A stretch of DNA of 51,302 nucleotides from a virus (taxonomy: Duplodnaviria; Caudoviricetes). Location of the stretch: the IMG/VR virus record IMGVR_UViG_3300032237_000709, positions 1 to 51,302 of that record. The stretch is one strand, 5' to 3'. Of this stretch, positions 6,870 to 49,823 are shown piece by piece. Numbering within the stretch: position 1 is the stretch's first letter; each line of letters opens with the position of its first letter. Made by a program: the position numbers and the translations under genes. Below the pieces are notes generated by a model. That model had not been told where the DNA came from. It did no database searches and saw only the letters and a program-made list of their open reading frames with translations.

Positions 6870-6916
6870 ATTATTTTGTTTTTGGTTAGTGGAAATATAC
6901 GTAGGAAGCAGTGCCA

Positions 6917-7234
6917 TTAGGCATCTGCTTTATTGTTATCAATATAATTTTCTAATGCATCTCTAACTGCTGCTTTAATTTTACCTTCATTTAGATCAAT
7001 ACTATCTAATTCAACTTCTCTATAACTCATACTTAATTCATAATCATCTACTATATCTGTTCCTTCACTAGATAATGCTTCTGATATGTCTTCACTTAAT
7101 GTTTTAACCATTTCATCTGATATTTCAAATGAACCTGATTCTTCAATGTCAGTAATCATTTTAATAACTTGTTCTACTGAATAAAATCCAGGTAATTGTT
7201 TTCCTAATAAGTCAATTGTTTCTTGCTTTGTCAT
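6917..7234 (-). CDS. acidic hypothetical protein
   Basis: 105 aa; motif at 7272. Confidence 0.75.
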   Translation of the reverse strand: MTKQETIDLLGKQLPGFYSVEQVIKMITDIEESGSFEISDEMVKTLSEDISEALSSEGTDIVDDYELSMSYREVELDSIDLNEGKIKAAVRDALENYIDNNKADA

Positions 7235-7286
7235 AACGATTTGTTTTTTGGTTTAATTAATTATTTATAACGTGAATGTACGATCA

Positions 7287-7469
7287 TTACTTTGCCTCTT
7301 TTACTTTCTTTACTGTGTAAGAATATTTGTAGTAGTGTCTCTCCCCAGGTGTTAGGTGTTTTCTTCTATTTTTAGCATATTGTTTTGCTTCTTCATGGCT
7401 ATCAAATGTAGCTACTACTTTACCACTATATTCGCTTATGCGACCACCTTTTTGAATTACTTGTGTCAT
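7287..7469 (-). CDS. hypothetical protein
   Basis: 60 aa; motif at 7484. Confidence 0.7.
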   Translation of the reverse strand: MTQVIQKGGRISEYSGKVVATFDSHEEAKQYAKNRRKHLTPGERHYYKYSYTVKKVKEAK

Positions 7470-7498
7470 AACTTATTATTTGTATGAATGTACGAACA

Positions 7499-7789
7499 CT
7501 ATTTTGCCGTCAACATCTCTTTTACCTTAACAAAATAATCTTCTATTTCCTTAACAAAGGTCATTGCTCGATTTTTAGTTTTTGCATATGCAAAGAACTG
7601 ACAGTATTCACTATCGAAATCTATTCCTTTGCAGTTAATTTTTGCTTGAATGAATTCTTCTACTTCATAGGCACCATCAAATTCCTTCATTGTTTCTGAT
7701 TTGAGTAGTTTACCTGTAATGGTGAATTGATCATCCCAGTCATATTTTTCGACTGATAATCCAAGTGGTGATTTGTAAATACTTTGCAT
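7499..7789 (-). CDS. hypothetical protein
   Basis: 96 aa, directly downstream of the tRNA-like RNA. Confidence 0.7.
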   Translation of the reverse strand: MQSIYKSPLGLSVEKYDWDDQFTITGKLLKSETMKEFDGAYEVEEFIQAKINCKGIDFDSEYCQFFAYAKTKNRAMTFVKEIEDYFVKVKEMLTAK

Positions 7790-7804
7790 AACTCTAATTT
7801 TTAG

Positions 7805-7919
7805 TAGTCAGGACAGGACTTGAACCTGTATGAAAGTCGCCCAATGCTCTCTCCGTATTGCCGTTCTTTATTGCGGGGGCTTTCGGCACGGTACGTCTAC
7901 TCTATTTCGCCACCTAACT
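7805..7919 (-). ncRNA. tRNA-Leu-like RNA with non-canonical insert in place of the anticodon/variable arms
   Basis: acceptor AGTTAGG/CCTGACT+A, D-region TGGCGAAATAGAGTAGACGT, T-arm ACAGG-TTCAAGT-CCTGT; 115 nt; motif copy ends 7 nt upstream. Confidence 0.7.
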
Positions 7920-7941
7920 TTATAATGTGAATATACGAATA

Positions 7942-8142
7942 CTACTGTGCCTTCCAATCGCCATCTTCATCCATCCATTCAGACCAATCATTGAGAATGG
8001 CTTCATCTGTTATACCAACATAATCTTCAAATGAACTATAAGCAAGTATGCAATCAATATAGTTGTCAATATAACCAATTGGTATATCACCTTCTGCTGT
8101 TAATACATCTCTAATGCGTTGTTCTATTTGTTCTTGTGTCAT
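7942..8142 (-). CDS. acidic hypothetical protein
   Basis: 66 aa; motif at 8162. Confidence 0.7.
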   Translation of the reverse strand: MTQEQIEQRIRDVLTAEGDIPIGYIDNYIDCILAYSSFEDYVGITDEAILNDWSEWMDEDGDWKAQ

Positions 8143-8185
8143 AATTATTTATTTGTGTGATGTGAATATACAAACACTATTTTGC

Positions 8186-8410
8186 CTATTGGAATAATTC
8201 TTTTATGATTTGTTTATGAGCCCATTTTATCATTTTCTGTGCTGTTACTTCATATTCATCACTATCTCCATTCATACAAATATCCCATTTTTCTTGATTA
8301 AATTTAGGGTGCGTTTTAACTATTTTAAATTCGTATTCTTCATAACCTTCAATTTCATTAATGTTATTTATAACGAATTGTTTAATATTCTTTTTTAACT
8401 TCTTTATCAT
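8186..8410 (-). CDS. hypothetical protein
   Basis: 74 aa; motif at 8428. Confidence 0.65.
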   Translation of the reverse strand: MIKKLKKNIKQFVINNINEIEGYEEYEFKIVKTHPKFNQEKWDICMNGDSDEYEVTAQKMIKWAHKQIIKELFQ

Positions 8411-8451
8411 AATTATTTATTTATAGAGTGAATGTAGGAAAGAAGTAGTGC

Positions 8452-9267
8452 CTAAGCATCTACTTCTTCTCTCATTACACCATAAGATATAGTTCCTTGT
8501 TCTAATTGATAACCGAACTTAATACCTACATTTCCGTTTCTATTCTTAGTAAATGTAATATAAGTACCACCACCATCTCTTTCAGATTCGCGTCTCATTT
8601 CACCCATAGCATCAAACAAATGCTTCAGTTTATTACTACCTACGAATTCGCCTTGTTTAGTTACTTGCTGAATGGCTAGAAACGATGTATATTTTCTTTC
8701 TGTATTATCACCTTTGTTATGCTTAACACATATATCAACAAACCATGCTTCAGCGGTTTTTCTATCCCAACCATTATCATCACGTACACCATCGATGATT
8801 TCAGCAGCACTATCAATTAGAATCAAATCCCATCCTTGTGCTAATACTTGCTCAAACACATCTTTAGTATTATACTCAAGATAATCCGCCATGAATAATG
8901 TCTTAACAAATCCGAATTGTGGGAAGCGTTCTGTGTATTTGAACATTTGCTTACGTCCCATTTCACCACTAATAAATAAACACTTACGTTGTCTATTATG
9001 ATTCTGGACCATAGCTAATACATCAAGTAACACTGTAGTTTTACCTACACCAGGATCTCCAATCATCATATAATTTGATGCACACGGAATACCTCCTTCT
9101 TCACTAAATAACTGATTAATAACTTCGCTTTCTGTCTCCATTGATTCCAACATACGTTGGTCAATATTTAATTGATTAAGCATTGTAATTTGTCCGAAAT
9201 CGATCAACGACGGAACATGAACTACATTTTGTACTTTAGAGGGTCTACCTCTTCTTTTTTGTTGCAT
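8452..9267 (-). CDS. RadA/Sms-like RecA-family ATPase with N-terminal AT-hook
   Basis: Walker A GDPGVGKTT, FISGE, Walker B LILIDS, QVTK.G, KNR.G; no Zn finger or Lon-like C-terminal domain. Confidence 0.8.
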   Translation of the reverse strand: MQQKRRGRPSKVQNVVHVPSLIDFGQITMLNQLNIDQRMLESMETESEVINQLFSEEGGIPCASNYMMIGDPGVGKTTVLLDVLAMVQNHNRQRKCLFISGEMGRKQMFKYTERFPQFGFVKTLFMADYLEYNTKDVFEQVLAQGWDLILIDSAAEIIDGVRDDNGWDRKTAEAWFVDICVKHNKGDNTERKYTSFLAIQQVTKQGEFVGSNKLKHLFDAMGEMRRESERDGGGTYITFTKNRNGNVGIKFGYQLEQGTISYGVMREEVDA

Positions 9268-21379: not shown

Positions 21380-21394
21380 AACTATAAATATTAG

Positions 21395-21466
21395 TACCAC
21401 GTACGGGACTCGAACCCGTGATTCCTCCGTGAAAGGGAGGCGTCTTAACCTCTTGACCAACGCGGC
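21395..21466 (-). tRNA. trnE: tRNA-Glu (UUC)
   Basis: GCCGCGT/ACGTGGT acceptor, anticodon arm CCTCC-CTTTCAC-GGAGG, T-loop TTCGAGT; no encoded CCA. Confidence 0.95.
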
Positions 21467-21471
21467 AGTAC

Positions 21472-21581
21472 TGCTGATTTATTGAGTGCACCGAATCTTC
21501 AAAACCAGCAAAATAACGGCACTCCCTTTCTTGTTTGTTTTTCAGATCACCCCACAAGTCCGGGTTAACATGAGCGATCTG
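21472..21581 (-). ncRNA. structured inter-tRNA spacer (hairpin plus predicted H-type pseudoknot)
   Basis: CAGATCGCTC/GGGTGATCTG; GAGTGC/GCACTC crossing TGCTGGTTT/AAATCAGCA. Confidence 0.4.
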
Positions 21582-21590
21582 TTGATCAAG

Positions 21591-21697
21591 TAGTCAGGAC
21601 AGGAATCGAACCTATAAGGAAGGAGGATTACTATTAAATCTAACAAATGTTACTAAGTTTAGATTCCTCAATGCGTCTACCATTACGCCACCTGACT
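21591..21697 (-). ncRNA. tRNA-Leu-like RNA with aberrant extended anticodon domain
   Basis: acceptor AGTCAGG/CCTGACT+A, D-arm GCGT-AATGGTAG-ACGC, T-arm ATAGG-TTCGATT-CCTGT; 107 nt; no canonical 7-nt anticodon loop. Confidence 0.75.
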
Positions 21698-21758
21698 ATA
21701 AAGACCCGATATCCGCGTTTTCATCTCACTCGGGTCATGATGAGCTTCCGACGGGTTG

Positions 21759-21829
21759 ATGTGACACCTGGATTCGAACCAGAAATGACAGAATCAAAAT
21801 CTGTAGTGTTACCGTTACACCATATCACA
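21759..21829 (-). tRNA. trnQ: tRNA-Gln (UUG)
   Basis: TGTGATA/TGTCACA acceptor, ACAGA-TTTTGAT-TCTGT anticodon arm, TTCGAAT T-loop. Confidence 0.95.
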
Positions 21830-21835
21830 ATTTTA

Positions 21836-22080
21836 ACACAGACTGAAGCAGAGTACGTACATTTACTTTCCTGCTAGCTTTTCAAAGATGTACACTAGAG
21901 TCTTCCCAATCCTCCTCAGAGACCTTTTACAGTCACAGGTACTGTGTGCAACTTTTGAACCTCATTTCAGAGTTGCCAACTGTGTCTACAAACGATTAGA
22001 AGAGCTCAGTGTGCCTGTGCACGACATGAAGTCGATTCTGAGAGGCCGGCTCCGTGTTTCGATCTCCTGGCCTAGGAGCT
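21836..22080 (-). ncRNA. putative ~250-nt multistem non-coding RNA
   Basis: GC-richer stretch with no credible minus-strand ORF and nested helices (see findings). Confidence 0.55.
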
Positions 22081-22082
22081 GG

Positions 22083-22295
22083 TTAATTTACTGTAACTAC
22101 AGAAGCAATGTTTGATGCTACTGCTGCTGTTACTTCAAATGCTTGTTCACCTTGATCTACTAGGTACTGTACCATTCTAGCTTCAGCTTCAGTTACTGAT
22201 TCTGAATCAACTAGATATAATACATTTTGTTTTTTTACTTTACCTTTACTGTCTTCAACAGTGAATTGTACTTTTACTTGGAAATAAGTTGCCAT
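22083..22295 (-). CDS. DUF4494-like protein (Bacteroidota family)
   Basis: YFQVKVQF..G.VKK...YLVD.ESVTEAEAR. Confidence 0.8.
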   Translation of the reverse strand: MATYFQVKVQFTVEDSKGKVKKQNVLYLVDSESVTEAEARMVQYLVDQGEQAFEVTAAVASNIASVVTVN

Positions 22296-25360: not shown

Positions 25361-26230
25361 CTAAATTATTTCAAATTCAATTTCAGTATCTCCAAATCCC
25401 CATGATTCACTATTTTCTGTTTCTTTTTGATATGTTATAGCTCGATATGGATCATTAGTTATTTTATTAACACCATCTAAAAATCCACCTCCTCCTCTCC
25501 CATGTTCAATATGAAATAGAGCAGGAGTATATATTGCTTTAAGTCCAAAACCATGCATTGCTGCTTTCTTTTGAACATTAGTATCAGCATATAATGAATA
25601 TATTAATTCTTCTTCAAATCCACGAATCGTATTCCATACCTTATATGGAGCAATTTGAAAATCACCACAACAATTAATTATACTGTAATTATCTCCATTT
25701 ACTGTTGTTTCTTCAAAGTGGCGCTCTTTAGAAGTTAATATTAAATGTTCTCTTAGTTCTTTCCATTTTTCAAAAGGTATATCGCCATTATGGAATGTTT
25801 TAATCATATCCCAATCAGTGTGTCTTCTACTTATTGTATAGAAGGATTCCTGATCTACTGTGTTAAGGATATTTTCTAATTCATCACGTTTAGGATGAAT
25901 AATATCAATGTTGGTTGATATTAACCAGTCCCCAGTAGCTCTTCTTAATCCAATGTTACGACCCAATACTTCACAACATTTCTGAGCATTAGGATCATTA
26001 TTGGTTAAAATGGATGCTATTTCAGGTGTAATAACAATATGTTTAAAATTACCTTTAAACTTAATATTATCTTTAATGTCATATAATAAACTATGGGTTT
26101 CTGAGTTCCAATCAACATATATTACTTCATCATACGTGTCTATTGCTGAATTAAAACAATATGTTGCTCTTTCATTTAAATGCCCTCCATAGTTATCATT
26201 TCGAGATACTATAACTGCTGATATTTTCAT
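25361..26230 (-). CDS. glycosyltransferase (GT-A fold)
   Basis: SRNDNYGG, VDWNS, RNIGLRRATGDW...NIDII, GDFQ, GFEE. Confidence 0.75.
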   Translation of the reverse strand: MKISAVIVSRNDNYGGHLNERATYCFNSAIDTYDEVIYVDWNSETHSLLYDIKDNIKFKGNFKHIVITPEIASILTNNDPNAQKCCEVLGRNIGLRRATGDWLISTNIDIIHPKRDELENILNTVDQESFYTISRRHTDWDMIKTFHNGDIPFEKWKELREHLILTSKERHFEETTVNGDNYSIINCCGDFQIAPYKVWNTIRGFEEELIYSLYADTNVQKKAAMHGFGLKAIYTPALFHIEHGRGGGGFLDGVNKITNDPYRAITYQKETENSESWGFGDTEIEFEII

Positions 26231-27153
26231 TATTTAAATTGATTAAAATAAATTTCTAAAAATTGTTTTGTTTTTTCTGGTAAATAGGGGGTGTTAGTTG
26301 AAGGTTTTTGACTGAAATCAAATGTATTTCTATATCCAATAACTTCGTTTTCTAAATTTCTAATTAAATCCTGAACATTTCTATCTTGATAGACTGATGC
26401 TCTATTATATATTAATTTATCAAATCCTATCATTTGCTGAGTATAATAACCACCCCAGATATCATCCATTCTACCAACATATGGCCATACAGCATAGTGT
26501 TTTAAAGCATCTCTATGAATAAATGTATTCTGAGAGTTAAATGGAGAGAATTGAGATGAGGCATATGGGCTTGTAATATTGAATTTAACTATAGGTTTAA
26601 ATGTTAAACGACACATAGCATCAATATCTGGGTCTCCGTCCCATAAATCGGCTTGGATTAATGGTGTTATTTTCTTTTTTCCTTTATATTCAACATCATT
26701 TTTTCTTTGTAGAGCTTCAATTGGATATCCTCTATGCCATAGATGAGATTGATTAGTTACTGATAGTGGATCAAATATGTTAAAGCGGGTATTTTCATAA
26801 TAATCCACTTCTACTTCCTTTCCAATATATAAATCAGTTCCCCAATTATCATATGGAATATTATCATCATCAACAGTAGCTACTACATCTGCTCCATTTT
26901 GGTAGGCATAAACAAATCCAATATTACGACGTTGAATTGTTTTCCATCCTATAATTTCACTTAATTCAGGATATAATTCTGATTGTTTATCGGGGTGAAG
27001 GTAAGTACAATCTAATTTTTTATATTCTTCATGAGGTGTTTTAGTATCACCTACCACAACAAACTCCCAATTATCGCGCCTAGCAATCTCAGCAAACTTA
27101 AGAGTGGCAGTTGTTGGTTTATTAATAGTTGTTGTAACTATAAATTTTTTCAT
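26230..27153 (-). CDS. STELLO/RGP-like (DUF288, GT75-related) protein
   Basis: VTTTIN.PT, VVGD.KTP, RRNIGF..A, DDDN, DPDIDA, PFNSQNT, RMDDIW. Confidence 0.8.
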   Translation of the reverse strand: MKKFIVTTTINKPTTATLKFAEIARRDNWEFVVVGDTKTPHEEYKKLDCTYLHPDKQSELYPELSEIIGWKTIQRRNIGFVYAYQNGADVVATVDDDNIPYDNWGTDLYIGKEVEVDYYENTRFNIFDPLSVTNQSHLWHRGYPIEALQRKNDVEYKGKKKITPLIQADLWDGDPDIDAMCRLTFKPIVKFNITSPYASSQFSPFNSQNTFIHRDALKHYAVWPYVGRMDDIWGGYYTQQMIGFDKLIYNRASVYQDRNVQDLIRNLENEVIGYRNTFDFSQKPSTNTPYLPEKTKQFLEIYFNQFK

Positions 27154-28061
27154 ATTAGCTTTTTATTTTTTATGTATTTAATCCACTGTTCAATATAATA
27201 AGGAAATTTTGATTCTATAATATTTCTTTGATTTTCTATTTTATTTAAAACTAATAAGTTTTTATAATAATCAGCAAAATTACTTTTATCATTTTTATCA
27301 GGATGATATTCAAATATTATTTGATTTTGTAATATATATTCATTAACTGTAATTCCATTAGTTACTGCTATATTAGATACTAACATTCCGAAATAATCCC
27401 ATGGTCCATATCCCTTCCATTCCTCTGGGATTGGAATTAATTCTTCAACCAATGATTTGCTATATACATCAAACCATCCTGCCCATTTGAAGTTATTTGC
27501 CTTTCTTAGATATGGTTCATCTAATATATTAGCTAGTTGTTGTATTTTAAATATATTTGATTTGTTCCATTGATCATAAGGAATATTTTGATAGTTTTCA
27601 TTTACTAATTCATCCCAGGTATGATCCCATAGTTTATGGATTTCTGGTGTAATAACAAAATATTTATCTTTAACTTGTTTAGCAGACTCTATTAAATAAT
27701 AAAGTAGATGTTCATGAAACCACATATCCGGACATATACCTATATAGTAATCTATATGTGATTCTATTTGTTTTTTTTCTAAATCTAAATGTCCCCATAA
27801 TTCATCCCCATCATATATTATTGGTTGTACTGTTGCCCAGTCTAATAATGAGAGTAAAGTATTAAATTTATTAATAAAAAATTCTTTAGGCAATTTAGAT
27901 TCATTCCAATTAATAATATAACTAGATAAATTTAAAGCTACATCAATGAATATTTTATCTTCAGAAGATAGATGCTGGTGTGCTTTCTTTAATTGAGTAA
28001 AGGAAAGTAAAGCATAGTCTATTTCCCAAGGCATTAAATGATATTTAATCTTAATATTCAT
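27150..28061 (-). CDS. putative glycosyltransferase
   Basis: 303 aa in glycan operon; CPD motif, GYGPWD. Confidence 0.55.
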   Translation of the reverse strand: MNIKIKYHLMPWEIDYALLSFTQLKKAHQHLSSEDKIFIDVALNLSSYIINWNESKLPKEFFINKFNTLLSLLDWATVQPIIYDGDELWGHLDLEKKQIESHIDYYIGICPDMWFHEHLLYYLIESAKQVKDKYFVITPEIHKLWDHTWDELVNENYQNIPYDQWNKSNIFKIQQLANILDEPYLRKANNFKWAGWFDVYSKSLVEELIPIPEEWKGYGPWDYFGMLVSNIAVTNGITVNEYILQNQIIFEYHPDKNDKSNFADYYKNLLVLNKIENQRNIIESKFPYYIEQWIKYIKNKKLI

Positions 28062-28827
28062 TTTTTAATTTATTATAAACTTCTTTAATTCCTTGTTTTA
28101 ATCCTATAAAATCAATAGGTAAAGCATTCCCTCCATCTCCATTATAGTTAACTCCACTACCATTACTAACTTTAACTTCAACTTTATATTCATCTAACTC
28201 ATTTATTAACTGAGCTATTCTAGTTAATGTACAAACTGTATTATAAATACAATTTATTTCTTTAGGTAAATTTGTATTATTTATATAATATTCTACTATT
28301 TTAACTAGATCAGGCATATAGATGAAATCCATATACTTATCCTGAGAAATTTGAATTGGTTCCTTATTTATATACCTTTTAATATTTGCCTTAATAAATC
28401 TAGTATCTAATTCATTCTCATCGAATACTCCGAATATTCTGGGGTTATAGAAATTATCTTTTTCTAATATTGATTGTCTTATAACATGTTTACTTAAACC
28501 ATAAGGAGTATCTTTAGCATATATTTCTGCTCCAGAACCAAAATGAATTAATTTATCAAAATAAGATTTATTAGCTAGTAAATTATAATACATAGATAAA
28601 TTATCATCTATTATATTTCCGTTATCCTCAGCTAATCTACTTCCACCCTTAACAGCACAATGAATTACCACATCAAATAATCTATGTTTAAAGAAATCAT
28701 TTGTTGCTTCTCTATCAGTTAAATCAAAATCAAATCTACTAATAGACATGACATTATGTATATCTTTAAGAGAATTATATAATGATTTAGCTATATAACC
28801 GTTTCCTCCTGTGATTAATATATTCAT
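28051..28827 (-). CDS. NAD-dependent epimerase/dehydratase (SDR)
   Basis: ITGGNGYIA, YGLSK. Confidence 0.85.
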   Translation of the reverse strand: MNILITGGNGYIAKSLYNSLKDIHNVMSISRFDFDLTDREATNDFFKHRLFDVVIHCAVKGGSRLAEDNGNIIDDNLSMYYNLLANKSYFDKLIHFGSGAEIYAKDTPYGLSKHVIRQSILEKDNFYNPRIFGVFDENELDTRFIKANIKRYINKEPIQISQDKYMDFIYMPDLVKIVEYYINNTNLPKEINCIYNTVCTLTRIAQLINELDEYKVEVKVSNGSGVNYNGDGGNALPIDFIGLKQGIKEVYNKLKNEY

Positions 28828-29300
28828 CGTTTTAGATTAATGTATATTGGAGTATTATTTTGAATTGAGTATTGAAATGATGATTCAAGTTCCTCTATTG
28901 TATTTGGTTTAAATGAAGTTATATTTTTAAATAAGTTCATTACTGATATATCTTCGCTAGCCCAATGAGAGAATCCTAAATAACCATAATCTTCATTTCT
29001 ACCGCCACCTAATATTTTAACTGGGATATATTCATGGTTGATATAATTTCTAATCATTTCAAATGGTCTGTATATAGCAAATGGTGTAATTGAATATGCG
29101 AATGGAATTTTACCATCCATAGCTAATCCAATAGCCATTCCCATCATAGCCATTTCAGATGACCCTACATTATAGAATCTGTTTGGAAATGCCTCTTTTA
29201 TTTCATCCCATAATCCATACCCTAGATCACCTGTAATTAGATAAATGTTAGGATTAGATTGCATTTCATTAAGGAGTAATTTAGCAAATTCACGTCTCAT
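28824..29300 (-). CDS. transketolase-like, pyrimidine-binding subunit
   Basis: TGDLGYG, RFYNVG.SE..M.G.A.GLA, RPFE.IR. Confidence 0.85.
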   Translation of the reverse strand: MRREFAKLLLNEMQSNPNIYLITGDLGYGLWDEIKEAFPNRFYNVGSSEMAMMGMAIGLAMDGKIPFAYSITPFAIYRPFEMIRNYINHEYIPVKILGGGRNEDYGYLGFSHWASEDISVMNLFKNITSFKPNTIEELESSFQYSIQNNTPIYINLKR

Positions 29301-29920
29301 TATAATTGTTGTAAAGCGGTTTGATAATCGGTTTCTCTCATTACATGGTAATGAGCATTTAATCCTTTTAAGAAAGTAAAATGTTCTACTGTTGTGTAAT
29401 GAATATTAACATTAGGGTAAAATGCTTGTAATCTTTGAGTTAAATATTTAGTATCAACTTCTTTATAAGCAGCATATCCATTTATATTAACATGCACTTC
29501 AATATTATTTATTTTTTCTTCAACTATTGTTTTAAGTGCTTCCCAAACACTTCCTTCAGCACATTCCCCATCACTTACTAACACATACACTTTTCTATTA
29601 GGATTGGCAACGGCTCTACCTAAAGCTATAGTAATACCTAACCCTAAGCTACCTGTAGAGCAATGTATTCCTGATTCTTCATCCCAATGGGGGTGACCTC
29701 CGTGTTTTAAAAATAGAGCTTCAGCATCTTGTCCTCTATACTTTTCTAAACAAACATATAAAGCTAAAGCAGCATGGCCTGATGATAATATGAATATATC
29801 ATTTTTATTCATTTTCTGGTAGATAGAGTCTATTATTTCTAATGCTGAAAAATAGCTTCCTAAATGGCCTAATTTATGTTTGTAGGCGATTTCTACTAAT
29901 CGTTTTTTTAATTCTACCAT
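29300..29920 (-). CDS. transketolase-like, TPP-binding subunit
   Basis: GHLGS..S, LS.GH, STGSLG.G, SDGECAEGSVWEAL. Confidence 0.85.
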   Translation of the reverse strand: MVELKKRLVEIAYKHKLGHLGSYFSALEIIDSIYQKMNKNDIFILSSGHAALALYVCLEKYRGQDAEALFLKHGGHPHWDEESGIHCSTGSLGLGITIALGRAVANPNRKVYVLVSDGECAEGSVWEALKTIVEEKINNIEVHVNINGYAAYKEVDTKYLTQRLQAFYPNVNIHYTTVEHFTFLKGLNAHYHVMRETDYQTALQQL

Positions 29921-30858
29921 ATAAATTTATTTTTATAATAATTAATTATATATTGAAGTTCAGTATTAAATTCAGCTTTAGGTTCCCAACCTAATGATCT
30001 TAGTTTAGAATCATCTAAAGCATATCTAACATCTTGGCCTGGTCTGCTATAGGTAAAGTCTATATAATTTTCAATATTGTTTATATTATTTAATGTAAGA
30101 AGTTTTTTAATAACATCCAAATTAGTTTGTTCAAATCCACCACAAATGTTATATATATCATTTTTAATACCAGATTCAATTATTGTGATAATAGCATTAG
30201 CTGTATCTTGAGCATGTAACCAATTTCTAATAGGAGTTCCACCATTATGTAATGGTATTTTTCTTCCTAATTTAAGATATTTACAAGCTTTAGGAATTAA
30301 TTTTTCAACATATTGTCCACTTCCATAGTTGTTAGTAGGTCTAACTATAATATAAGGTTGATTATATGTTCTAGCCCATGCTAGTATTAACATATCAGCT
30401 GCGGCTTTAGTTGCTGAGTATGGGTTGCTTGGGTTTAGTATGTCTGTTTCTATATGTGCTCCGCTATCTATATCTCCATAAACTTCATCTGTGCTAAAAT
30501 GTAATAATGTTGGTTTTTCACTATTTTCACCTCTATGATTCTTAATTAATTCTAATAAATGATGAACTCCATTAATATTAGAATGTATAAATTCATTACT
30601 ATTAGCTATTGAGTTACCAACATGTGTTTCAGCGGCTGTATTAATAACATAATCACAGTCATATAGGAATTTTAAGTCATTTATATCACAATGTACAAAT
30701 GAAAAGTTAGGATATTTTTTAAATTCATCTAATAAATCTTTATTTGCAGCGTATGTTATTTTATCTACACCTTTTACATACCATCCCTTTTCAAGACATG
30801 TTCTTGTTATATATGATCCTATAAATCCTAAGCATCCTGTTACATATACTACTTTCAT
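29914..30858 (-). CDS. rfbB: dTDP-glucose 4,6-dehydratase-like
   Basis: TG..GFIGS, AAETHV, STDEVYG, PYSATKAA, NNYG..Q..EKLIP, RPGQD.RY. Confidence 0.85.
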   Translation of the reverse strand: MKVVYVTGCLGFIGSYITRTCLEKGWYVKGVDKITYAANKDLLDEFKKYPNFSFVHCDINDLKFLYDCDYVINTAAETHVGNSIANSNEFIHSNINGVHHLLELIKNHRGENSEKPTLLHFSTDEVYGDIDSGAHIETDILNPSNPYSATKAAADMLILAWARTYNQPYIIVRPTNNYGSGQYVEKLIPKACKYLKLGRKIPLHNGGTPIRNWLHAQDTANAIITIIESGIKNDIYNICGGFEQTNLDVIKKLLTLNNINNIENYIDFTYSRPGQDVRYALDDSKLRSLGWEPKAEFNTELQYIINYYKNKFIW

Positions 30859-31997
30859 TTATTAAAAAATTCTTTTATTTTATTACAAACATAATCTACA
30901 TCTTCAATTGTCATACCATGGTGTGCACCTAATAAGAAACCATTTTTCATAATAGTATCTGAATTGATGAATGGTTGGAGGTATTCTCTATAAACGGGGT
31001 GCCTTGTTACATTACCAGCAAATGTTACTCTTGTTTGAATGTTATTTTCTTCTAGAAAATTAAGTAATTCATATCGCTTTTCTGTTTGTAACGGGATAGC
31101 TAACCAGTTTGGTTTAATATTATCATCAGGTAATAATATTTCAGGAACGTTTTTAAGATTATCTAAATAACGTTCAATATTTGCTCGTCTAATACCTTCA
31201 AATTCTTTAAAACGCTCTAATTGAACTAATCCAAATGCAGCATTCATTTCTGATGATTTGAAATTATATCCAAGTACGCCATATAAGAACTTATGATCGT
31301 ATGGAATACCATCAACAGTATGATTAAATCTATCAGACATTACTTCTGAGTTATTCCCCATTCTACCCCAATCTCTAAATTGTAGACATACATTACGAAG
31401 TTTTTCATCATTAAACATTACCATACCCCCTGAACCACCTGCTGTGATAACGTGACTAGCATAAAAACTAGTTGTTGCAATGTCTGTTTCTAGAGTATGA
31501 GTTACTGTATCAGCTGAATCTTCAATTAAGATAACATCTTCCCTTCCTATTGCTACTAAACCATCTTTAATTGCTTTCCAATCTGGTTTATTACCTATTA
31601 GGTTAGGTATCATTAATACCTTTACATCATCAGTAATAGCGGATATTACTTCTTTTGCATTAGCACAGTATGTGGTTAAATCAACATCTACAAATACTGG
31701 AACTAATCCTAATTGGATAATGGGTGCTAATGTGGTTGAGAAGGTACATGCTGGTGTTACTACTTTAGTTCCTTTAGGTAACTGTAAACATGCTAGAGCA
31801 AGTAAACATGCTGATGAACCGGAATTAACAAATACACCGTATTTCTTTCCAAAGAACTTTGCTATTTTTTCTTCAAATTCGACTGAGCGAGGACCAAATC
31901 CGGCAATCCATCCATCTCTTAAGCAGTCAACTACTGCTTGAATTTCTTGTTCTCCATAAGATTCAAACTTATTGGGAGCGTACCATACTTTTTTCAT
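30855..31997 (-). CDS. DegT/DnrJ-fold PLP/PMP enzyme, NDP-4-keto-6-deoxyhexose 3-dehydratase type (RfbH/ColD-like)
   Basis: VNSGSSA.LLA, IEDSAD, SFYASHVIT (His at the usual Lys position), RDWGR, GYN. Confidence 0.8.
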   Translation of the reverse strand: MKKVWYAPNKFESYGEQEIQAVVDCLRDGWIAGFGPRSVEFEEKIAKFFGKKYGVFVNSGSSACLLALACLQLPKGTKVVTPACTFSTTLAPIIQLGLVPVFVDVDLTTYCANAKEVISAITDDVKVLMIPNLIGNKPDWKAIKDGLVAIGREDVILIEDSADTVTHTLETDIATTSFYASHVITAGGSGGMVMFNDEKLRNVCLQFRDWGRMGNNSEVMSDRFNHTVDGIPYDHKFLYGVLGYNFKSSEMNAAFGLVQLERFKEFEGIRRANIERYLDNLKNVPEILLPDDNIKPNWLAIPLQTEKRYELLNFLEENNIQTRVTFAGNVTRHPVYREYLQPFINSDTIMKNGFLLGAHHGMTIEDVDYVCNKIKEFFNK

Positions 31998-32017
31998 ATT
32001 AAGTTATTCTTATTAAT

Positions 32018-32974
32018 TTACTTAAAAAATTCTGCACTATCACATTCTTCTCTAAAGAATTTGAGAGTATCTTGATTAAATAATTTTGTTTTATATAGAT
32101 GTGTTAAATAATTAAAATCTTCTAAAGGACGACCATGTAATCCCTCAGCAATGTGCCATACTTTAATATGTTTATGATCATGGGTAAATAATTTACCATC
32201 TTTAACATAATAATGAGAAATAGGAGCTTGAGTTGGATTATTTAGAGCAAGATCAAAGATATGGTTTGTATAATTAACTCCTTTAGCTCTAACATTATAA
32301 ACAACTTCACTTGTAGGATAAGGTCCATCTAAAACTCTAGTTGAATAACCACCTTCTGTCCATATCAACTCATTAAATGCTCCTTGTTCACCAAATACAC
32401 TAGGATGAGTAACCATTAGCTCTACACATCTTTCTAACGCTTTGATATTATTAAAACATATCACTCCAGAATTAAGATTAGCACTATCTTGCATTGTTGT
32501 ACCATCCTCAAATTCTAAAGTATAAAACGGAGTCTCAAAATATTCTGTCCTATCCTGAATATTGTAGTTTAATGTTGCTAATATATCGTTTTCATTATCT
32601 TCTAACATTTCTGTAAATCTAGCACATGTGATAGTATCAATATCTAAAACAATTAATTTATCTGCTTTGTAATATTTCATAGTTTCATATGCTATTACAA
32701 ATTTCTGTGCTACACTACAATTAATTAATTTAGGACTACCAAATAATGTTAAATATTCTTCTAAATTATCATCATTAATATAAACCATTTCAACATCAGG
32801 GTGCCATTTCTTAAAACTTCTTAAACAACAATCTACATACTCATTATACCGAGATTGATCATTGTCATGCATTATATTTAATTCTGTGTATTTATCTACC
32901 ATTTGAGTATGGTGGAGAAATTTACCTGTTGTTACGTTACTAAAAACGGCAATTGTTTTTGGAGGTGTGTTCAT
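32018..32974 (-). CDS. glycosyltransferase (GT8-like)
   Basis: LDIDT (DxD), LNSGV, EQGAFN. Confidence 0.65.
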   Translation of the reverse strand: MNTPPKTIAVFSNVTTGKFLHHTQMVDKYTELNIMHDNDQSRYNEYVDCCLRSFKKWHPDVEMVYINDDNLEEYLTLFGSPKLINCSVAQKFVIAYETMKYYKADKLIVLDIDTITCARFTEMLEDNENDILATLNYNIQDRTEYFETPFYTLEFEDGTTMQDSANLNSGVICFNNIKALERCVELMVTHPSVFGEQGAFNELIWTEGGYSTRVLDGPYPTSEVVYNVRAKGVNYTNHIFDLALNNPTQAPISHYYVKDGKLFTHDHKHIKVWHIAEGLHGRPLEDFNYLTHLYKTKLFNQDTLKFFREECDSAEFFK

Positions 32975-32975
32975 T

Positions 32976-34061
32976 TTATTTTATTAATTGTTTTGTAAAA
33001 TTTAAAGCGGATTCAATTACTTGATGCATATCATAATATTTGTATTCTGCTAAACGTCCGCCGAATATAATATCTTTTTCTTGACCTGCCAAGTTTTTAT
33101 ACATTAAATATTTTTCATTATTTTCTTTATCATTAACAGGATAATAGGGTTCAGTAGTTTTAGCATCATATTCTGTTGGGTATTCAAATGTTATCCAAGT
33201 AATATCATTTTCATTATTTTCAAAATATTTATGTTCTATTACTCGGGTGAATGGTATTTCTTCATCTGTGTAATTCATCATAGCCGTTCCTTGATAGATG
33301 TCTTCTGGTATTCTAACGTGCTCAAACTTTGTTGTTTTATATTCCAATTCACCAAATTGATAATTATAGAATCTATCAATAGGACCAGTATAAATGACTT
33401 TATTATGTTCAGGTAATTCATCTTTAAAGTAATCAACTCCTAATTTAACTTCAACTCCATCAAGTAATTTCTCAAATATTTGAGTATATCCACCAATGGG
33501 GATACCTTGATATTTGTCATTAAAGTAGTTGTTGTCATAAGTAAAACGAACTGGGAGACGTTTAATTATTTCTTTTGGTAGTTCTTTAGGGTCTTTTCTC
33601 CATTGTTTAGCTGTATATCCTTTGATTAGTTTTTCATATACATCTGTACCGACTAATTTAATTGCTTGTTCTTCTAGATTAGTTGGTTCACCAATATGTT
33701 CACTTTGTCCTTTAATAATTCGCTTTGCTTGATCGGGATGTGTTATATTCCATAGTTTAGAGAATGTCCACATATTAAAAGGTAATGAATATATCTCACC
33801 TTTATAATTGGCTACTGGTCTTAAAGTAAAATTATTGAATGAAACGAACTGGTTAATCCATTTCCATACCTCATCATTTGACGTATGAAATATGTGAGGT
33901 CCATAAGTATGAATATTAATTCCCTCTCTATTTTCTGTATGGCAGTTCCCACCAATGTGATTTCTAGAATCAATAACTACTACTTTGAATCCAGCTCTAT
34001 TTAATTCATAGGCACATATAGAGCCAAAGAAACCGGAACCTACTATTAAATAATCGTACAT
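32976..34061 (-). CDS. glf: UDP-galactopyranose mutase
   Basis: VGSGFFG, HIGGNC, H.YGPHIFHT, YQGIP.GGYT, EPYYP, GRLAEYKYYDM. Confidence 0.95.
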   Translation of the reverse strand: MYDYLIVGSGFFGSICAYELNRAGFKVVVIDSRNHIGGNCHTENREGINIHTYGPHIFHTSNDEVWKWINQFVSFNNFTLRPVANYKGEIYSLPFNMWTFSKLWNITHPDQAKRIIKGQSEHIGEPTNLEEQAIKLVGTDVYEKLIKGYTAKQWRKDPKELPKEIIKRLPVRFTYDNNYFNDKYQGIPIGGYTQIFEKLLDGVEVKLGVDYFKDELPEHNKVIYTGPIDRFYNYQFGELEYKTTKFEHVRIPEDIYQGTAMMNYTDEEIPFTRVIEHKYFENNENDITWITFEYPTEYDAKTTEPYYPVNDKENNEKYLMYKNLAGQEKDIIFGGRLAEYKYYDMHQVIESALNFTKQLIK

Positions 34062-34904
34062 TTAAATATTATTAATATCAATAATTTCTTTAAGAGTTTC
34101 TTTAAATCTACTAAATAAATCAGCATAATATTTTGCTAATTCATAGTTATGATTAATAGCATCTTTTCTATTAAAATAATCTTCAGGAGTTAATTTATTA
34201 GTAACTTCAATGATTTCATTTTCATCATTACAATAAATAAAACCATTAACGTCATATCCTAATTCTTCTAAATTTGGACAACCCCAATATATAGGAACTG
34301 TTTTAGATAAGAAAGCATCAATTATCTTTTCTGTATGGTATCCTCTATTTGAGGAATTTTCAACACAAATTGAAAACATACTATCCCATAATCTTTTTTT
34401 ACCATTAATATCCGTTACTATATGATGCCCATCACCATAATCATAATCCGGTAAGGTATAATACCACTGTTTAGGGATTGTTATTTCATCTTCACGTTTA
34501 TGTAATCTGTGTCTTAAATGGTGTCCTTCAATTCGCTGTTTACCACCACATAGAAAGGATACTTCAAATTTTTTATCTAATTTATCTACATTATCTACAT
34601 ACTCTTTATCTAACCAGCTAATTCCAAAAGGGAAAAACACAGAATTAGGACATTTATCTAATATATCCTGTCCCCATGTTAGTACCATACTAAATAAGTG
34701 AGCATTCTGAAGAGCCCAATCATGGATACCAAATAATTGGTTTGGCTCCATTACCATTAATATATTATATGGATTAAAAGTAAGCTGTTCATAACTTACA
34801 TTATGATAGTCATTAAATATAGAGATGGGTTTATTTTTTAAATCTTCTGTAACGACTTCTTCAAATTGTTCTTTAGGGATAAAATTAGAATATATTCTAA
34901 GCAT
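34062..34904 (-). CDS. GT10 (alpha-1,3-fucosyltransferase-like) glycosyltransferase
   Basis: FSICVENS...YHTEKIIDAF...VPIYWG. Confidence 0.8.
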   Translation of the reverse strand: MLRIYSNFIPKEQFEEVVTEDLKNKPISIFNDYHNVSYEQLTFNPYNILMVMEPNQLFGIHDWALQNAHLFSMVLTWGQDILDKCPNSVFFPFGISWLDKEYVDNVDKLDKKFEVSFLCGGKQRIEGHHLRHRLHKREDEITIPKQWYYTLPDYDYGDGHHIVTDINGKKRLWDSMFSICVENSSNRGYHTEKIIDAFLSKTVPIYWGCPNLEELGYDVNGFIYCNDENEIIEVTNKLTPEDYFNRKDAINHNYELAKYYADLFSRFKETLKEIIDINNI

Positions 34905-36021
34905 CTATTGTATAATTAAATTGTTTTAAATATTCATTAAGTATTTTTTCTTCTATCTCTTTATCAATAGAATAATATTCCGAAGTATAAACCATTTCTA
35001 ATACTGCTTTTAAACGATACTGAATCATTTCTTCTTCATCAATATTGGGGTTTGAATCTATTTCAGATATTCTGCCTTTCCAAACTAATGGTAAATCTTC
35101 TAATGTAAATTTGTAATCTGTTCCTGATTTATTATATGCATAGTAATAGTCTTTTTTAGGATTTATATTAGTCCATCCTTCTTTATAATCATTATATCCA
35201 TACCTTATTTTAATATTATTTTCAAAGAATCCTACAGGAATATCAATAGCAGGACATTGATTATTATCAATAATAGGTTGAATATGTTGATAACCATCAA
35301 AATGACGACATAGTTCTTTTAAGGGTGATATTGTTTTATGTATAGGTACTGGTTTAATTTCAGCCAATCCAATTCCAAAATAATCAGGGCGAGGTAACTT
35401 AATATTGCTAAATTCTCCTTCAAACCACCATTGATAATATAGATTTTTAGTTATAATTTGAATACTATCAAAATTATTTGAATCTACTGATACGTAATTA
35501 TTATTGATTTTATAAGTAGGATGAAAGTTAGATAAGGGTTGAGGATTAAATCCTTGTTTTACTGTTCTAATACATTCTGGCCAATGAGAAAATCCAACTG
35601 AGCATAATTCTTCATTTTTTATATTATTAGCTAGTAAATTTAAATATTCTTTAGAAGAATCAAAAAATATATGATCATGATTACAATAATACCAAATTAA
35701 GTTATTATCTAGTAATTTATAATCTTCTCTCCAATCATTTTGATATTCATTTCTTTGCCATTTTAATATTAAATTAAATCTATTAAATTCAGTCTTAATA
35801 AATTTTTCTAATTCTGATTGACGATTTTTGTAGATATTATCTAAAGATATTTTTAGAATTACTTTACTCCAATCATAAGCAACCGCTAAACTAGCTAATG
35901 AATATTTAAAAATATCAAAATTAGAGAATAATTTTAAATTTTGTCTAGCATTATGTTTTTGATATCCCCAATTAGGGTTAACTGGGGTTTCTGTAATAAA
36001 TGTGTTGATAAATAATATCAT
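34897..36021 (-). CDS. hypothetical protein (possible glycosyltransferase)
   Basis: 374 aa in operon; CNHDHIF, RHFDGY. Confidence 0.6.
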   Translation of the reverse strand: MILFINTFITETPVNPNWGYQKHNARQNLKLFSNFDIFKYSLASLAVAYDWSKVILKISLDNIYKNRQSELEKFIKTEFNRFNLILKWQRNEYQNDWREDYKLLDNNLIWYYCNHDHIFFDSSKEYLNLLANNIKNEELCSVGFSHWPECIRTVKQGFNPQPLSNFHPTYKINNNYVSVDSNNFDSIQIITKNLYYQWWFEGEFSNIKLPRPDYFGIGLAEIKPVPIHKTISPLKELCRHFDGYQHIQPIIDNNQCPAIDIPVGFFENNIKIRYGYNDYKEGWTNINPKKDYYYAYNKSGTDYKFTLEDLPLVWKGRISEIDSNPNIDEEEMIQYRLKAVLEMVYTSEYYSIDKEIEEKILNEYLKQFNYTIDA

Positions 36022-36377
36022 ATATTAATATTTTTTATTCCAACATTTCTTTTTACATTAATAGCAAATGCTGCTTCTGTCCCATCTGGTTTAAAATCAT
36101 TTATTAGGTACCTAGGTCCACCTCCTACTCCCATTATTAATTGATCATAATATATTCCTAACTGAGATAGTTGTTTTTCTGTTGCTTGTCTCATAGATTC
36201 TTTCCTTCCAGTTAATAATATTATATTATAACCATTGCGTTCCCATTCGTTTAGTTTATCTATAGTGCCTTCTAATAATTCTGGTAAGTATGAATTTTTA
36301 GCTACTTCACTAGGCTTATTATGTTTTACTAAAGTACCATCTATGTCACATATAATTGTTTTTGGTCTGGGGTCCAT
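36018..36377 (-). CDS. minimal HAD-family phosphatase
   Basis: DIDGTL, LTGR, YDQLIMG, IND. Confidence 0.8.
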   Translation of the reverse strand: MDPRPKTIICDIDGTLVKHNKPSEVAKNSYLPELLEGTIDKLNEWERNGYNIILLTGRKESMRQATEKQLSQLGIYYDQLIMGVGGGPRYLINDFKPDGTEAAFAINVKRNVGIKNINI

Positions 36378-37510
36378 TAGATGAATATTATGTTTGAGTT
36401 AATATTTGTTAATATATCGTTCTTTACTTCATCATTATATACTCCTGCTCTTAATATTACTATAGCTTCAGAAATATCTTTTAATATTTTTGGATTTTTA
36501 GATATTAAAGAAGTACCATATAATCTTTTACTTTCTTTTTTAGTATCATTATCTAATAAACAAACTATTTTAGATATATCTAATCCAAATGAAATTAAAT
36601 ATTGAGAAAAAACATGAGCACCAAATAAGTAAATAGGTAAATCTGTTTTATTTATAATTTCATTAATTTTATTTACATCATCTAAATGAGTATTAATATA
36701 TTGTTGAAATGTTAATTTATTTTTTTCATATAATCCCTCTGGTAAGTTTACAGATACATTATTTGATTTTTTTGCACAATAAAATATACTATGATCCTTT
36801 CTAAAGTATTGTTTTTCAACTAATTCAAAATTATATTTATTTAAAAAATATTCTATATATGGTTCTGTAAAGTATATAGTATGTTCAAAATTAATACAGT
36901 TAGTGTAGTTATTTTCTAACATAACTTGCATATTAGGAAGAGTAAATATTAGTAAATCTCCACCATTCATAAAAGAGGATTTATGACTTATAAATTCATC
37001 TGGGTTGTATACATGTTCTAGGACATGAGAGTGAACTACTGCTTCAAATTTTTCATCTGATGTAAATTTATCATCAAAAAATCCTTTAATTACTTTAATA
37101 GGTAAATTAGGGTCTACTGTTGGGTTAGGTTCAATCATGGTCCATTTAACACTACTATCTAATTCTAGATATTTTTCTGCTAGTATACCATGTAACCCAC
37201 CAATCTCTAAAATACTTTTTGGTTTAAATTTATGAACAAAATTAGCAAATGATGTATGATGTTCACTCCATGCTTTTCCTGTTGTACCTGATCCATGTTC
37301 TGCGCTATACACTACATCTAAAGGAAGTAATGGGTTAAGTTGGATCATTCCTGATTCTTTACTTATTTTCCAATTCATATCGGATAATACATCTTCTGAT
37401 GGGGGTTGATCTGTGCATCCCATGAATACGGGAAATTGTTTAAAGGTATATAGATCTTCTAAATCATTATTGCCAAATAACACATCATTATTTCTATTTA
37501 TATAATTCAT
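36377..37510 (-). CDS. class I SAM-dependent methyltransferase (sugar C-methyltransferase-like)
   Basis: LEIGG..G, HVLEH, FEH..YF, C-terminal YLFGA..LDND..K. Confidence 0.8.
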   Translation of the reverse strand: MNYINRNNDVLFGNNDLEDLYTFKQFPVFMGCTDQPPSEDVLSDMNWKISKESGMIQLNPLLPLDVVYSAEHGSGTTGKAWSEHHTSFANFVHKFKPKSILEIGGLHGILAEKYLELDSSVKWTMIEPNPTVDPNLPIKVIKGFFDDKFTSDEKFEAVVHSHVLEHVYNPDEFISHKSSFMNGGDLLIFTLPNMQVMLENNYTNCINFEHTIYFTEPYIEYFLNKYNFELVEKQYFRKDHSIFYCAKKSNNVSVNLPEGLYEKNKLTFQQYINTHLDDVNKINEIINKTDLPIYLFGAHVFSQYLISFGLDISKIVCLLDNDTKKESKRLYGTSLISKNPKILKDISEAIVILRAGVYNDEVKNDILTNINSNIIFI

Positions 37511-41984: not shown

Positions 41985-41987
41985 AAA

Positions 41988-42380: not shown

Positions 42381-42440
42381 TATTAAAAGTATTATTTGTA
42401 TAAATATAAATTATCTTTCCTGTATTAGTTGAGTACCACA

Positions 42441-43748: not shown

Positions 43749-43753
43749 ATAAC

Positions 43754-49814: not shown

Positions 49815-49823
49815 TTTCTTTAA

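What the first reader, a model, noticed from the sequence alone, without database searches (positions are those of the whole stretch)
7805..7919. Orphan tRNA-Leu-like scaffold RNA with foreign insert, expressed as its own cassette
Seen: acceptor stem, Leu-type D region, intact T-arm and discriminator A, but ~60 nt (CCGT-GCCG...CGGC-AAT-ACGG stem plus extra sequence) replaces the anticodon/variable arms. It starts 7 nt after a promoter motif and lies ~13.7 kb from the tRNA island. Its ends are nearly identical to the element at 21591-21697 (AGTyAGGTGGCG...GTAGACG and AGGTTCrA.TCCTGTCCTGACTAC) while the middles are unrelated. Known: bacterial LeuRS uses A73 and the D/T elbow rather than the anticodon; RNase P, RNase Z and CCA-adding enzyme recognise the acceptor/T half. 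Inference: a family of tRNA-scaffolded RNAs with a swappable payload, e.g. decoys for tRNA-cleaving defences, stabilised sRNAs/guides or non-ribosomal aminoacyl donors.
Basis: partly seen in the sequence, partly recalled or inferred. Interest (0 to 1): 0.8.

Follow-up and report, generated by a model that had tools for sequence, protein, structure and literature searches.

The report
Phage tRNA frame with swappable middle
This is one copy of a widespread tRNA-shaped gene of uncultured phages that keeps a nearly fixed outer frame, lacks an anticodon loop, and carries different middle pieces at the same genome position in close relatives; it likely makes a stable small RNA that displays an exchangeable folded cargo, whose job is untested.

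Summary
Real. Window 7805-7919 (minus strand, E1) is a tRNA-Leu-type frame whose anticodon and variable arms are replaced by 63 nt; 21591-21697 (E2) has the same frame and an unrelated middle. The window is a T4-like phage, probably of Bacteroidota. The frame occurs in an estimated 2,000 viral stretches; 319 middles fall into 247 clusters. Frame structure is selected (wobble-biased acceptor changes, covarying 15:48 pair, A73, C74). One slot with conserved flanks holds five different middles in six phages; one middle recurs in loci of 51% and 32% GC. E1's middle is more conserved (2 of 63 columns vary) than its neighbour gene (69 of 201). No excision restores an anticodon loop. Corrections: E1 is not a separate cassette but sits between a promoter and a 96-codon gene; its D-loop GG is split, weakening the charging prediction; no source for the insert was found. 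Expression is untested (no RNA run). Phage T5 RNA1 has the same architecture; the multi-copy exchange of middles was not found in ten literature searches. This scan probably noted the family before on other DNA (e1-5828328, e1-5369199). Best reading: processed, non-decoding scaffold RNA with recombination-exchanged cargo.

The parts
7928..7951 (-). Promoter-like motif GGCA-N11-14-TAYATTYR, repeated before the small genes of this region
   Evidence: 27 minus-strand copies, 2 plus-strand; 26 of the 27 have an ATG within 45 nt, the exception is this one, which is followed by E1. Promoter activity is inferred.
7805..7919 (-). E1: 115-nt tRNA-Leu-type frame without anticodon loop
7913..7919 (-). 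Acceptor stem 5' strand (pairs with 7806-7812; discriminator A73 at 7805, C74 at 7804, no encoded CCA)
   Evidence: pair 4-69 U.G/U-A and pair 7-66 G-C/A-U across four copies
7893..7910 (-). D arm, Leu-type (A14, A15, A20a) but with G-A-G in place of G18G19
   Evidence: family has GG in 303 of 328
7830..7892 (-). 63-nt middle: 8-bp bulged stem with 20-nt loop (7853-7891) and 5-bp variable-arm-like hairpin (7832-7851), ending in U48
   Evidence: 2 of 63 columns vary in five copies; one change turns G.U into A-U; fold is predicted only, an alternative fold has similar energy
7813..7829 (-). T arm, 5 bp with UUCAAGU loop
7499..7789 (-). 96-aa ORF of no known family, starting 15 nt after A73; would share the transcript with E1
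   Evidence: no Pfam or PHROG hit; element upstream in 2 of 21 homologous loci
21591..21697 (-). E2: second copy of the frame, unrelated 56-nt middle, full Leu identity set, between tRNA-Gln (21758-21829) and tRNA-Glu (21394-21466)
   Evidence: same slot holds other middles in relatives

Best explanation
E1 is one copy of a multi-copy phage gene family with a near-constant tRNA-Leu-type frame and a variable, anticodon-less middle; it is likely transcribed, likely trimmed by host tRNA-processing enzymes into a stable non-decoding RNA, and likely works as a carrier that displays its folded middle as cargo, probably a protein-binding decoy. Shown: the frame, its structural conservation, the absence of an anticodon loop, different middles at one slot and one middle at different slots. 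Inferred: transcription from the upstream motif; 5' and 3' maturation and CCA completion by host RNase P, 3' nucleases and CCA-adding enzyme, which would also cut the RNA free of the downstream gene; exchange of middles by recombination in the two constant ends of about 26 nt, which would also keep those ends uniform. Least supported: that the cargo binds a host defence or RNA-handling protein. My odds: expressed non-decoding RNA with exchanged middles about 0.8; middle is the working part about 0.5; target is host defence about 0.3.
For: Frame uniform from both sides: 3'-anchored, 169 of 189 have AGTCAGG and 13 of 16 single variants keep pairing as wobbles, 4 unresolved; 5'-anchored, 103 of 113 have a T arm and acceptor, 81 of 103 the same acceptor strand. 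Tertiary pair 15:48 covaries: C48 in 7 of 8 with G15 against 12 of 178 others, p 3e-7, unrelated middles. A73 181 of 199 and C74 194 of 199, C74 as in 102 of 104 ordinary tRNAs of these loci. Exchange: five middles in six loci with flanks 73-95% alike; three middles at the E2 slot plus a fourth in run X4; a 60-nt middle differing at 2 positions between loci of 51% and 32% GC. Cargo constrained: E1 middle 2 of 63 variable columns against 5 of 52 in the frame and 69 of 201 in the next gene; 13 pairs with two-sided change in 16 middle clusters; GNRA hairpins 22 sense, 2 antisense, 12.1 +/- 3.6 shuffled. Engineered scaffolds of acceptor, D and T arms with an insert at the anticodon stem are processed and stable in E. 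coli (PMC3753655, passages). T5 RNA1 and RNA2 are annotated stable RNAs of this shape.
Against: No expression data. E1 as a whole (z -0.22) and its middle (z +0.46) fold no better than shuffles; family middles are only modestly structured (mean z -0.63; antisense -0.55, no strand difference). Covariation in E1 does not exceed shuffles (78 of 500), and the cluster counts come from structures chosen by RNAalifold, with 15 pairs broken in some member. A recent sweep by recombination could give the high identity of the E1 middle without selection on it. No partner protein: 122 downstream ORFs fall into 99 clusters. The element is optional: an allele without it exists. E1's split G18G19 may weaken the elbow that processing enzymes use.
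Confidence: 0.5

Rival explanations
1. The frame is the working part: an anticodon-less tRNA body that would soak up enzymes reading the acceptor and elbow (tRNA-attacking toxins or nucleases, LeuRS, EF-Tu) or carry leucine for a non-ribosomal use; the middle is filler that only has to fold.
For: Frame is constant while middles fall into 247 clusters of 319; 168 of 328 carry the whole E. coli Leu identity set, and tRNA-Leu lacking anticodon and variable arms is still charged (PMC9976931, passages); middles are weakly structured.
Against: E1's middle is at least as conserved as its frame; E1 lacks G18G19 and has changed two acceptor pairs; 160 of 328 lack at least one identity element; no aminoacyl-tRNA-using enzyme among 97 of 138 larger ORFs of G001 and 44 window ORFs scanned.
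Confidence: 0.25
2. A cis element: a tRNA-shaped processing signal that would cut or stabilise the transcript of the next gene, and a repeat that lets small genes be shuffled, like the PeSL cassettes of T4-type phages.
For: E1 sits in the leader position 15 nt before an ATG; family copies are rarely followed by another tRNA-like gene (8 of 279 against 33 of 97 for ordinary tRNAs) and often by an ORF (102 of 279); many slots keep the downstream flank and change the upstream one; PeSL precedent (PMC2839356, abstract).
Against: Does not explain a conserved middle, nor swaps with both flanks fixed; 19 of 21 homologues of the downstream gene lack it; among copies not followed by an RNA gene the ORF rate (102 of 271) is close to that of ordinary tRNAs (19 of 64).
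Confidence: 0.13
3. A selfish or neutral tRNA-derived repeat that spreads by recombination and whose middle drifts by insertion and capture of tRNA pieces.
For: Presence/absence polymorphism; tandem copies; T-arm-like pieces inside 10 of 328 middles against 0.3 in shuffles (one is probably a mis-parse); insertions also in D loop and 3' strand.
Against: Wobble-biased and compensatory changes and 15:48 covariation need selection at RNA level; reverse transcriptase in 0 of 5 and integrase in 1 of 5 carrier records, none in G001; no clear target-site duplication (36 of 241 against 27 expected, maximum 35).
Confidence: 0.08
4. A tRNA gene with a small intron that is spliced to give a decoding tRNA.
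For: E1 has a 5-bp stem at the anticodon position; removing 22 nt gives a 93-nt cloverleaf.
Against: 0 of 8 such excisions in E1 and 0 of 32 in E2 give a loop with U33 and purine 37; 6 of 328 family members have a canonical-looking arm against 2.4 (maximum 7) in shuffles; no intron family in Rfam; RtcB in 0 of 5 records; lengths run from 67 to 196 nt.
Confidence: 0.03

Closest known systems
Phage T5 RNA1 and RNA2 (NC_005859 misc_RNA T5s03, T5s06, 'tRNA-like stable RNA with unknown functions')
   Same: RNA1 folds as acceptor, Leu-type D arm, anticodon stem extended by a long insert, long variable arm and T arm: the same architecture.
   Different: No sequence match to E1 or E2; one gene each inside the tRNA cluster in the record seen; here a shared acceptor sequence, several dispersed copies per genome and hundreds of exchangeable middles.
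Class II tRNA-Leu (Rfam RF00005), especially phage tRNA-Leu(UAA)
   Same: A73, U8/A14, A15:U48, A20a, T arm; a phage tRNA-Leu(UAA) shares 20 nt of variable-arm end and T arm with E1; another has an AGTC...GACT-A acceptor. Likely ancestor.
   Different: No anticodon loop; G18G19 split in E1; acceptor sequence fixed across the family.
Engineered tRNA scaffold for recombinant RNA (PMC3753655, passages seen)
   Same: Acceptor, D and T arms kept; cargo inserted at the anticodon stem.
   Different: Man-made; this would be a natural, diversifying version.
YrlA Y RNAs (RF02553; PMC4201824, abstract and outline seen)
   Same: Non-decoding tRNA mimic found in bacteria and phages.
   Different: No YrlA match at E1; Ro60/TROVE in 0 of 5 carrier records.
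PeSL cassettes of T4-type phages (PMC2839356, abstract seen)
   Same: Short repeats in small-gene regions that can serve as crossover sites.
   Different: PeSLs are promoter-terminator units; this repeat is a tRNA frame enclosing variable cargo.
Phage T4 rnaC and rnaD (species 1 and 2 stable RNAs, NC_000866)
   Same: Stable RNAs beside tRNA genes; rnaC ends in a T-arm-like hairpin.
   Different: No Leu-type D arm in the predicted folds; single copies.

Membership tests
Class II tRNA-Leu (decoding) | 7-bp acceptor, A73, 5-bp T stem with canonical loop | tested here: met
Class II tRNA-Leu (decoding) | U8:A14, A15:U48, A20a | tested here: met
   read from the alignment
Class II tRNA-Leu (decoding) | G18G19 in the D loop | tested here: not met
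   G-A-G in 4 of 4 E1 copies; met in E2 and 303 of 328 family members
Class II tRNA-Leu (decoding) | 5-bp stem with 7-nt anticodon loop, U33 and purine 37 | tested here: not met
Class II tRNA-Leu (decoding) | Charged by LeuRS | not testable with these tools
   needs an assay
Intron-containing tRNA | One excision restores a canonical anticodon loop | tested here: not met
   0 of 8 (E1), 0 of 32 (E2)
Intron-containing tRNA | Group I/II intron core or other Rfam intron match | tested here: not met
T5 RNA1-type tRNA-like stable RNA | tRNA upper body with extended, anticodon-less lower arm | tested here: met
   predicted folds
T5 RNA1-type tRNA-like stable RNA | Sequence homology to T5 RNA1/RNA2 | tested here: not met
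   no T5 hit at E <= 10
T5 RNA1-type tRNA-like stable RNA | Accumulates as a stable RNA in infection | not testable with these tools
   no RNA holder listed
YrlA Y RNA | Match to RF02553 | tested here: not met
   none at E1; best in 20 family loci 23.5 bits against cut-off 69
YrlA Y RNA | Ro60 (TROVE) gene nearby | tested here: not met
   0 of 5 records
tmRNA | Ala-type acceptor with G3.U70 and tag frame | tested here: not met
   U3-A70; ARAGORN finds no tmRNA in the window; G3.U70 rule recalled
allo-tRNA (PMC5389517, abstract and passages) | 8/4 or 9/3 acceptor branch | tested here: not met
   7/5 branch
PeSL-type shuffling repeat | Promoter plus terminator in one repeat | tested here: not met
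   no terminator-like site on the minus strand of 6900-8500
PeSL-type shuffling repeat | Crossovers at the repeat | tested here: inconclusive
   flank and middle similarity change at the frame; mechanism not shown
SINE/MITE-like mobile repeat | Mobilising enzyme and target-site duplication | tested here: not met
   an enzyme supplied by the host was not tested

The most novel reading that the evidence does not exclude
A natural, community-wide RNA display system: unrelated Bacteroidota phages share one tRNA chassis whose constant ends serve both for host processing and as crossover sites, and trade a library of about a thousand folded cargo RNAs that act as decoys or inhibitors of host defence proteins under diversifying selection.
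Probability: 0.25. Interest if true: 0.9.

Novelty: new variant of a known kind. Interest (0 to 1): 0.66.

Why it matters
tRNA-like stable RNAs of T5 and T4 are still annotated as of unknown function. This family supplies hundreds of natural variants with a fixed frame, which separates what the frame does from what the middle does and makes the question testable by swaps. If the middles are working cargo, phages have evolved the same tRNA-scaffold trick used in the laboratory and a new store of small anti-host RNAs. Practically, tRNA finders miscall these genes: ARAGORN labelled 45 of 186 with 32 different anticodon labels, which would distort phage tRNA and codon-usage studies.

Tried and rejected
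No RNA holder listed for the E1 region; this says nothing on expression. blastn of E1 and E2 against 50,697 phage records gave only short T-arm or chance hits. The one metagenome scan used too loose a pattern: of 119 loci only L230 and L289 were E1 copies. Five of seven loci from the E2-slot pattern, three of five from one E1 pattern and twelve of fourteen from another were not family copies and were dropped. Source search for 109 middles in 0.69 Mb of masked loci: 22 hits against 16 for reversed controls, mostly 14-16 nt; rejected as chance, apart from one overlapping-locus self-match, one 21-nt match not followed up, and a 19-nt match of the E1 middle to three near-identical GC-rich loci. 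No Rfam family other than tRNA reached its cut-off in 20 family loci. E1 loop absent from 301 genomes of the phylum sampled; 5' frame in 2 of 151, one being the binned contig that brought the genome in and one a chance coding match. A closing helix at the ends of the middles is no commoner than in shuffles (32 against 29.8 of 90). The Fisher test printed used mistyped counts and is not used. My notebook figure of 187 for C74 was a miscount; one search gives 194 of 199. Literature searches returned nothing; others returned no paper whose listing describes this family; older T4/T5 papers are outside the library and no supplements were read.

Full report
Observation. The minus strand of 7919-7805 (E1) has a 7-bp acceptor stem, a Leu-type D arm, a 63-nt middle, U48, a canonical T arm and A73 followed by C but no CCA. 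ARAGORN finds only tRNA-Glu and tRNA-Gln in the window. Rfam tRNA scores E2 (21591-21697) at 37.6 bits and E1 at 30.4 bits in a small search. The middle can be drawn as an 8-bp bulged stem with a 20-nt loop and a 5-bp variable-arm hairpin, but it folds no better than shuffles (z +0.46) and an alternative fold competes. The D loop has G-A-G instead of G18G19 in all four aligned copies.

Setting. The window is a virus record, 31% GC. Its closest complete relative, G001 (170,255 bp, terminal repeats), aligns at about 70-94% over many blocks and encodes T4-like capsid, portal, gp32 and family B polymerase, 7-deazaguanine enzymes, and OmpA and type IX secretion signal domains (97 of 138 ORFs of 120 aa or more scanned). 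A Bacteroidota host is inferred. Listed holder runs that name a habitat are mostly freshwater. E1 follows a motif that occurs 27 times on the minus strand; 26 copies have an ATG within 45 nt and the exception is the one before E1. An ATG of a 96-aa ORF of no known family follows 15 nt after A73 with no terminator-like site between. So E1 occupies the leader position of a promoter-gene unit. One contig of run X6 joins the promoter side to the ORF through 15 AT-rich letters, without E1 (one contig, 30 letters on the short side), and 19 of 21 homologous ORF loci have no element upstream: E1 is optional.

Family. A 22-nt pattern of T arm and acceptor strand matches an estimated 2,000 stored viral stretches (from 5 of 64 parts) and 30 stretches among 185,579 species genomes, all from metagenome bins, 16 of 30 labelled Bacteroidota. 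199 distinct elements run from 67 to 196 nt. The uniform frame is not an artefact of the pattern: from the 3' side 169 of 189 have AGTCAGG upstream and 13 of 16 single variants are wobbles; from the 5' side 103 of 113 have a T arm and acceptor, 90 with the same 3' T strand, 81 with the same acceptor strand, 86 with A73, 100 with U48. Five large carrier records hold 2-4 copies each; one 62-kb contig has seven matches. The frame is not a host isoacceptor in the 151 genomes sampled. Phage tRNA-Leu(UAA) genes share the T arm or resemble the acceptor, so descent from tRNA-Leu is likely.

The frame is selected as a folded RNA. The 15:48 tertiary pair covaries: 146 of 186 are A:U, and C48 occurs in 7 of 8 with G15 against 12 of 178 others (p 3e-7). 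C74 is kept in 194 of 199, as in 102 of 104 ordinary tRNAs of the same loci. In E1's lineage the acceptor shows one two-sided and one one-sided change and all 112 cells pair, but with four sequences this does not exceed shuffles. The E. coli leucine identity set (A73, A15-U48, G18G19, A20a; anticodon and variable arm dispensable; PMC9976931, passages; PMC2377443, abstract) is complete, with U8/A14, in 168 of 328 members including E2, but not E1.

The middle is exchanged. 319 middles form 247 clusters, 206 of them singletons (Chao1 about 1,060; a few entries are mis-parsed). At the E2 slot, whose downstream spacer is 91-94% identical, the window, L191 and G001 carry three unrelated middles and run X4 a fourth, while runs X2, X3 and X6 carry the window's allele. 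In a different phage group of 51-53% GC, six loci with flanks 73-95% alike carry five middles and a seventh has two tandem copies. Conversely a 60-nt middle differs at two positions between a 51% GC and a 32% GC locus before different genes, and G001's E2 middle has relatives before other genes in L014 and L415. Recombination in the constant ends is the simplest account and is inferred. T-arm-like pieces in 10 of 328 middles (0.3 in shuffles) suggest captured tRNA fragments as one source; no other source was found.

Is the middle constrained? In five E1 copies 2 of 63 middle columns vary, against 5 of 52 in the frame and 69 of 201 in the next gene; one change improves a pair. A recent sweep could also give this. 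In 16 clusters of three or more, predicted pairs show 13 two-sided changes, 12 one-sided, 15 with breaks and 146 invariant (structures chosen by RNAalifold, so biased). Ninety dereplicated middles have mean z -0.63, with no significant strand difference, and 22 GNRA hairpins against 2 on the opposite strand and 12.1 +/- 3.6 in shuffles. The evidence is moderate.

What it is not. Not a decoding tRNA or an intron-bearing one: no single excision restores a canonical loop in E1 or E2, and 6 of 328 members look canonical against 2.4 in shuffles, though three of these (two Lys-UUU-like, one Ile-UAU-like) look like real tRNA bodies in the frame. Not YrlA, tmRNA or allo-tRNA. No reverse transcriptase or RtcB in 5 carrier records, one integrase match with stops and one CCA-adding enzyme match, both in G002. 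No fixed protein partner: 122 downstream ORFs form 99 clusters.

Mechanism. Most likely the frame is a chassis: host enzymes would trim it from the transcript as for any tRNA, giving a stable RNA that displays the middle, as engineered scaffolds do (PMC3753655, passages), while the constant ends allow cargo to be swapped. I favour the middle as the working part (0.5), probably a protein-binding decoy; the frame as decoy or leucine carrier (0.25), a cis processing and shuffling signal (0.13), a selfish repeat (0.08) and an intron (0.03) are the rivals. Expression, processing, charging and targets are all untested.

Known relatives and novelty. T5 RNA1 has the same architecture and is annotated as a tRNA-like stable RNA of unknown function, so the kind is known; there is no sequence homology. 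The shared acceptor, multiple dispersed copies and exchange of middles across unrelated phages were not found in ten searches (listings only, except the papers named above, PMC7609411 and PMC5389517 passages, PMC2839356 and PMC4201824 abstracts). The library lacks most subscription and older papers. Two earlier notes of this scan seem to describe the same family on other DNA; they are not independent support, and the T5, T4 and YrlA comparisons were leads from earlier notes. Verdict: new variant of a known kind, interest 0.66.

Noticed in passing
window 21830-22085 (minus): Non-coding 256 nt upstream of tRNA-Gln, predicted long hairpin (-69.8 kcal/mol); 133 nt match L065 at 83%, with weaker matches in L381 and L161; in L065 it ends directly before a family element. 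No Rfam match. Candidate structured RNA.
   Followed up: partly
window 21698-21757 and 21467-21590 (minus): Two conserved spacers flanking E2: the 60-nt one is 95% identical in L381, where it again precedes a family element with a different middle, and 88% in L142; the 124-nt one is 91-94% identical in relatives. Both contain a GCTCAT...ACCCG motif.
   Followed up: partly
L193-L195 5736-5894, L197 1877-2033: A second tRNA-framed family with a TGTAGGG acceptor, G73 and a conserved insert of about 100 nt.
   Followed up: no
L346, L350, L355, L358, L359 near 600: A third tRNA-framed RNA with encoded CCA directly behind a TTGACA/TATAAT promoter and before an ORF; shares an ATTGGGCG stretch with E1, which was the search pattern.
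   Followed up: no
L332 12109-12217 and 12307-12593: Long tRNA-framed elements with other acceptor sequences, 109 and 287 nt.
   Followed up: no
window 48576-50213 (minus): The GroEL-like chaperonin appears split into ORFs of 129 and 412 aa.
   Followed up: no
L191-L199 downstream of the 106-aa ORF homologue: 8 of 9 related loci carry a tmRNA there; the window and G001 have none by ARAGORN.
   Followed up: no
L115, L025, L064: Family frames that enclose canonical-looking tRNA bodies (Ile-UAU-like, Lys-UUU-like), suggesting exchange with ordinary tRNA genes.
   Followed up: partly
L364, L367, L385; L037, L108, L399: Family copies with insertions in the 3' acceptor strand or in the D loop.
   Followed up: no
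window 25361-45214 (minus): About 20 kb of genes that read like polysaccharide or sugar-modification enzymes (glycosyltransferase Pfam hits for three of the five scanned).
   Followed up: no
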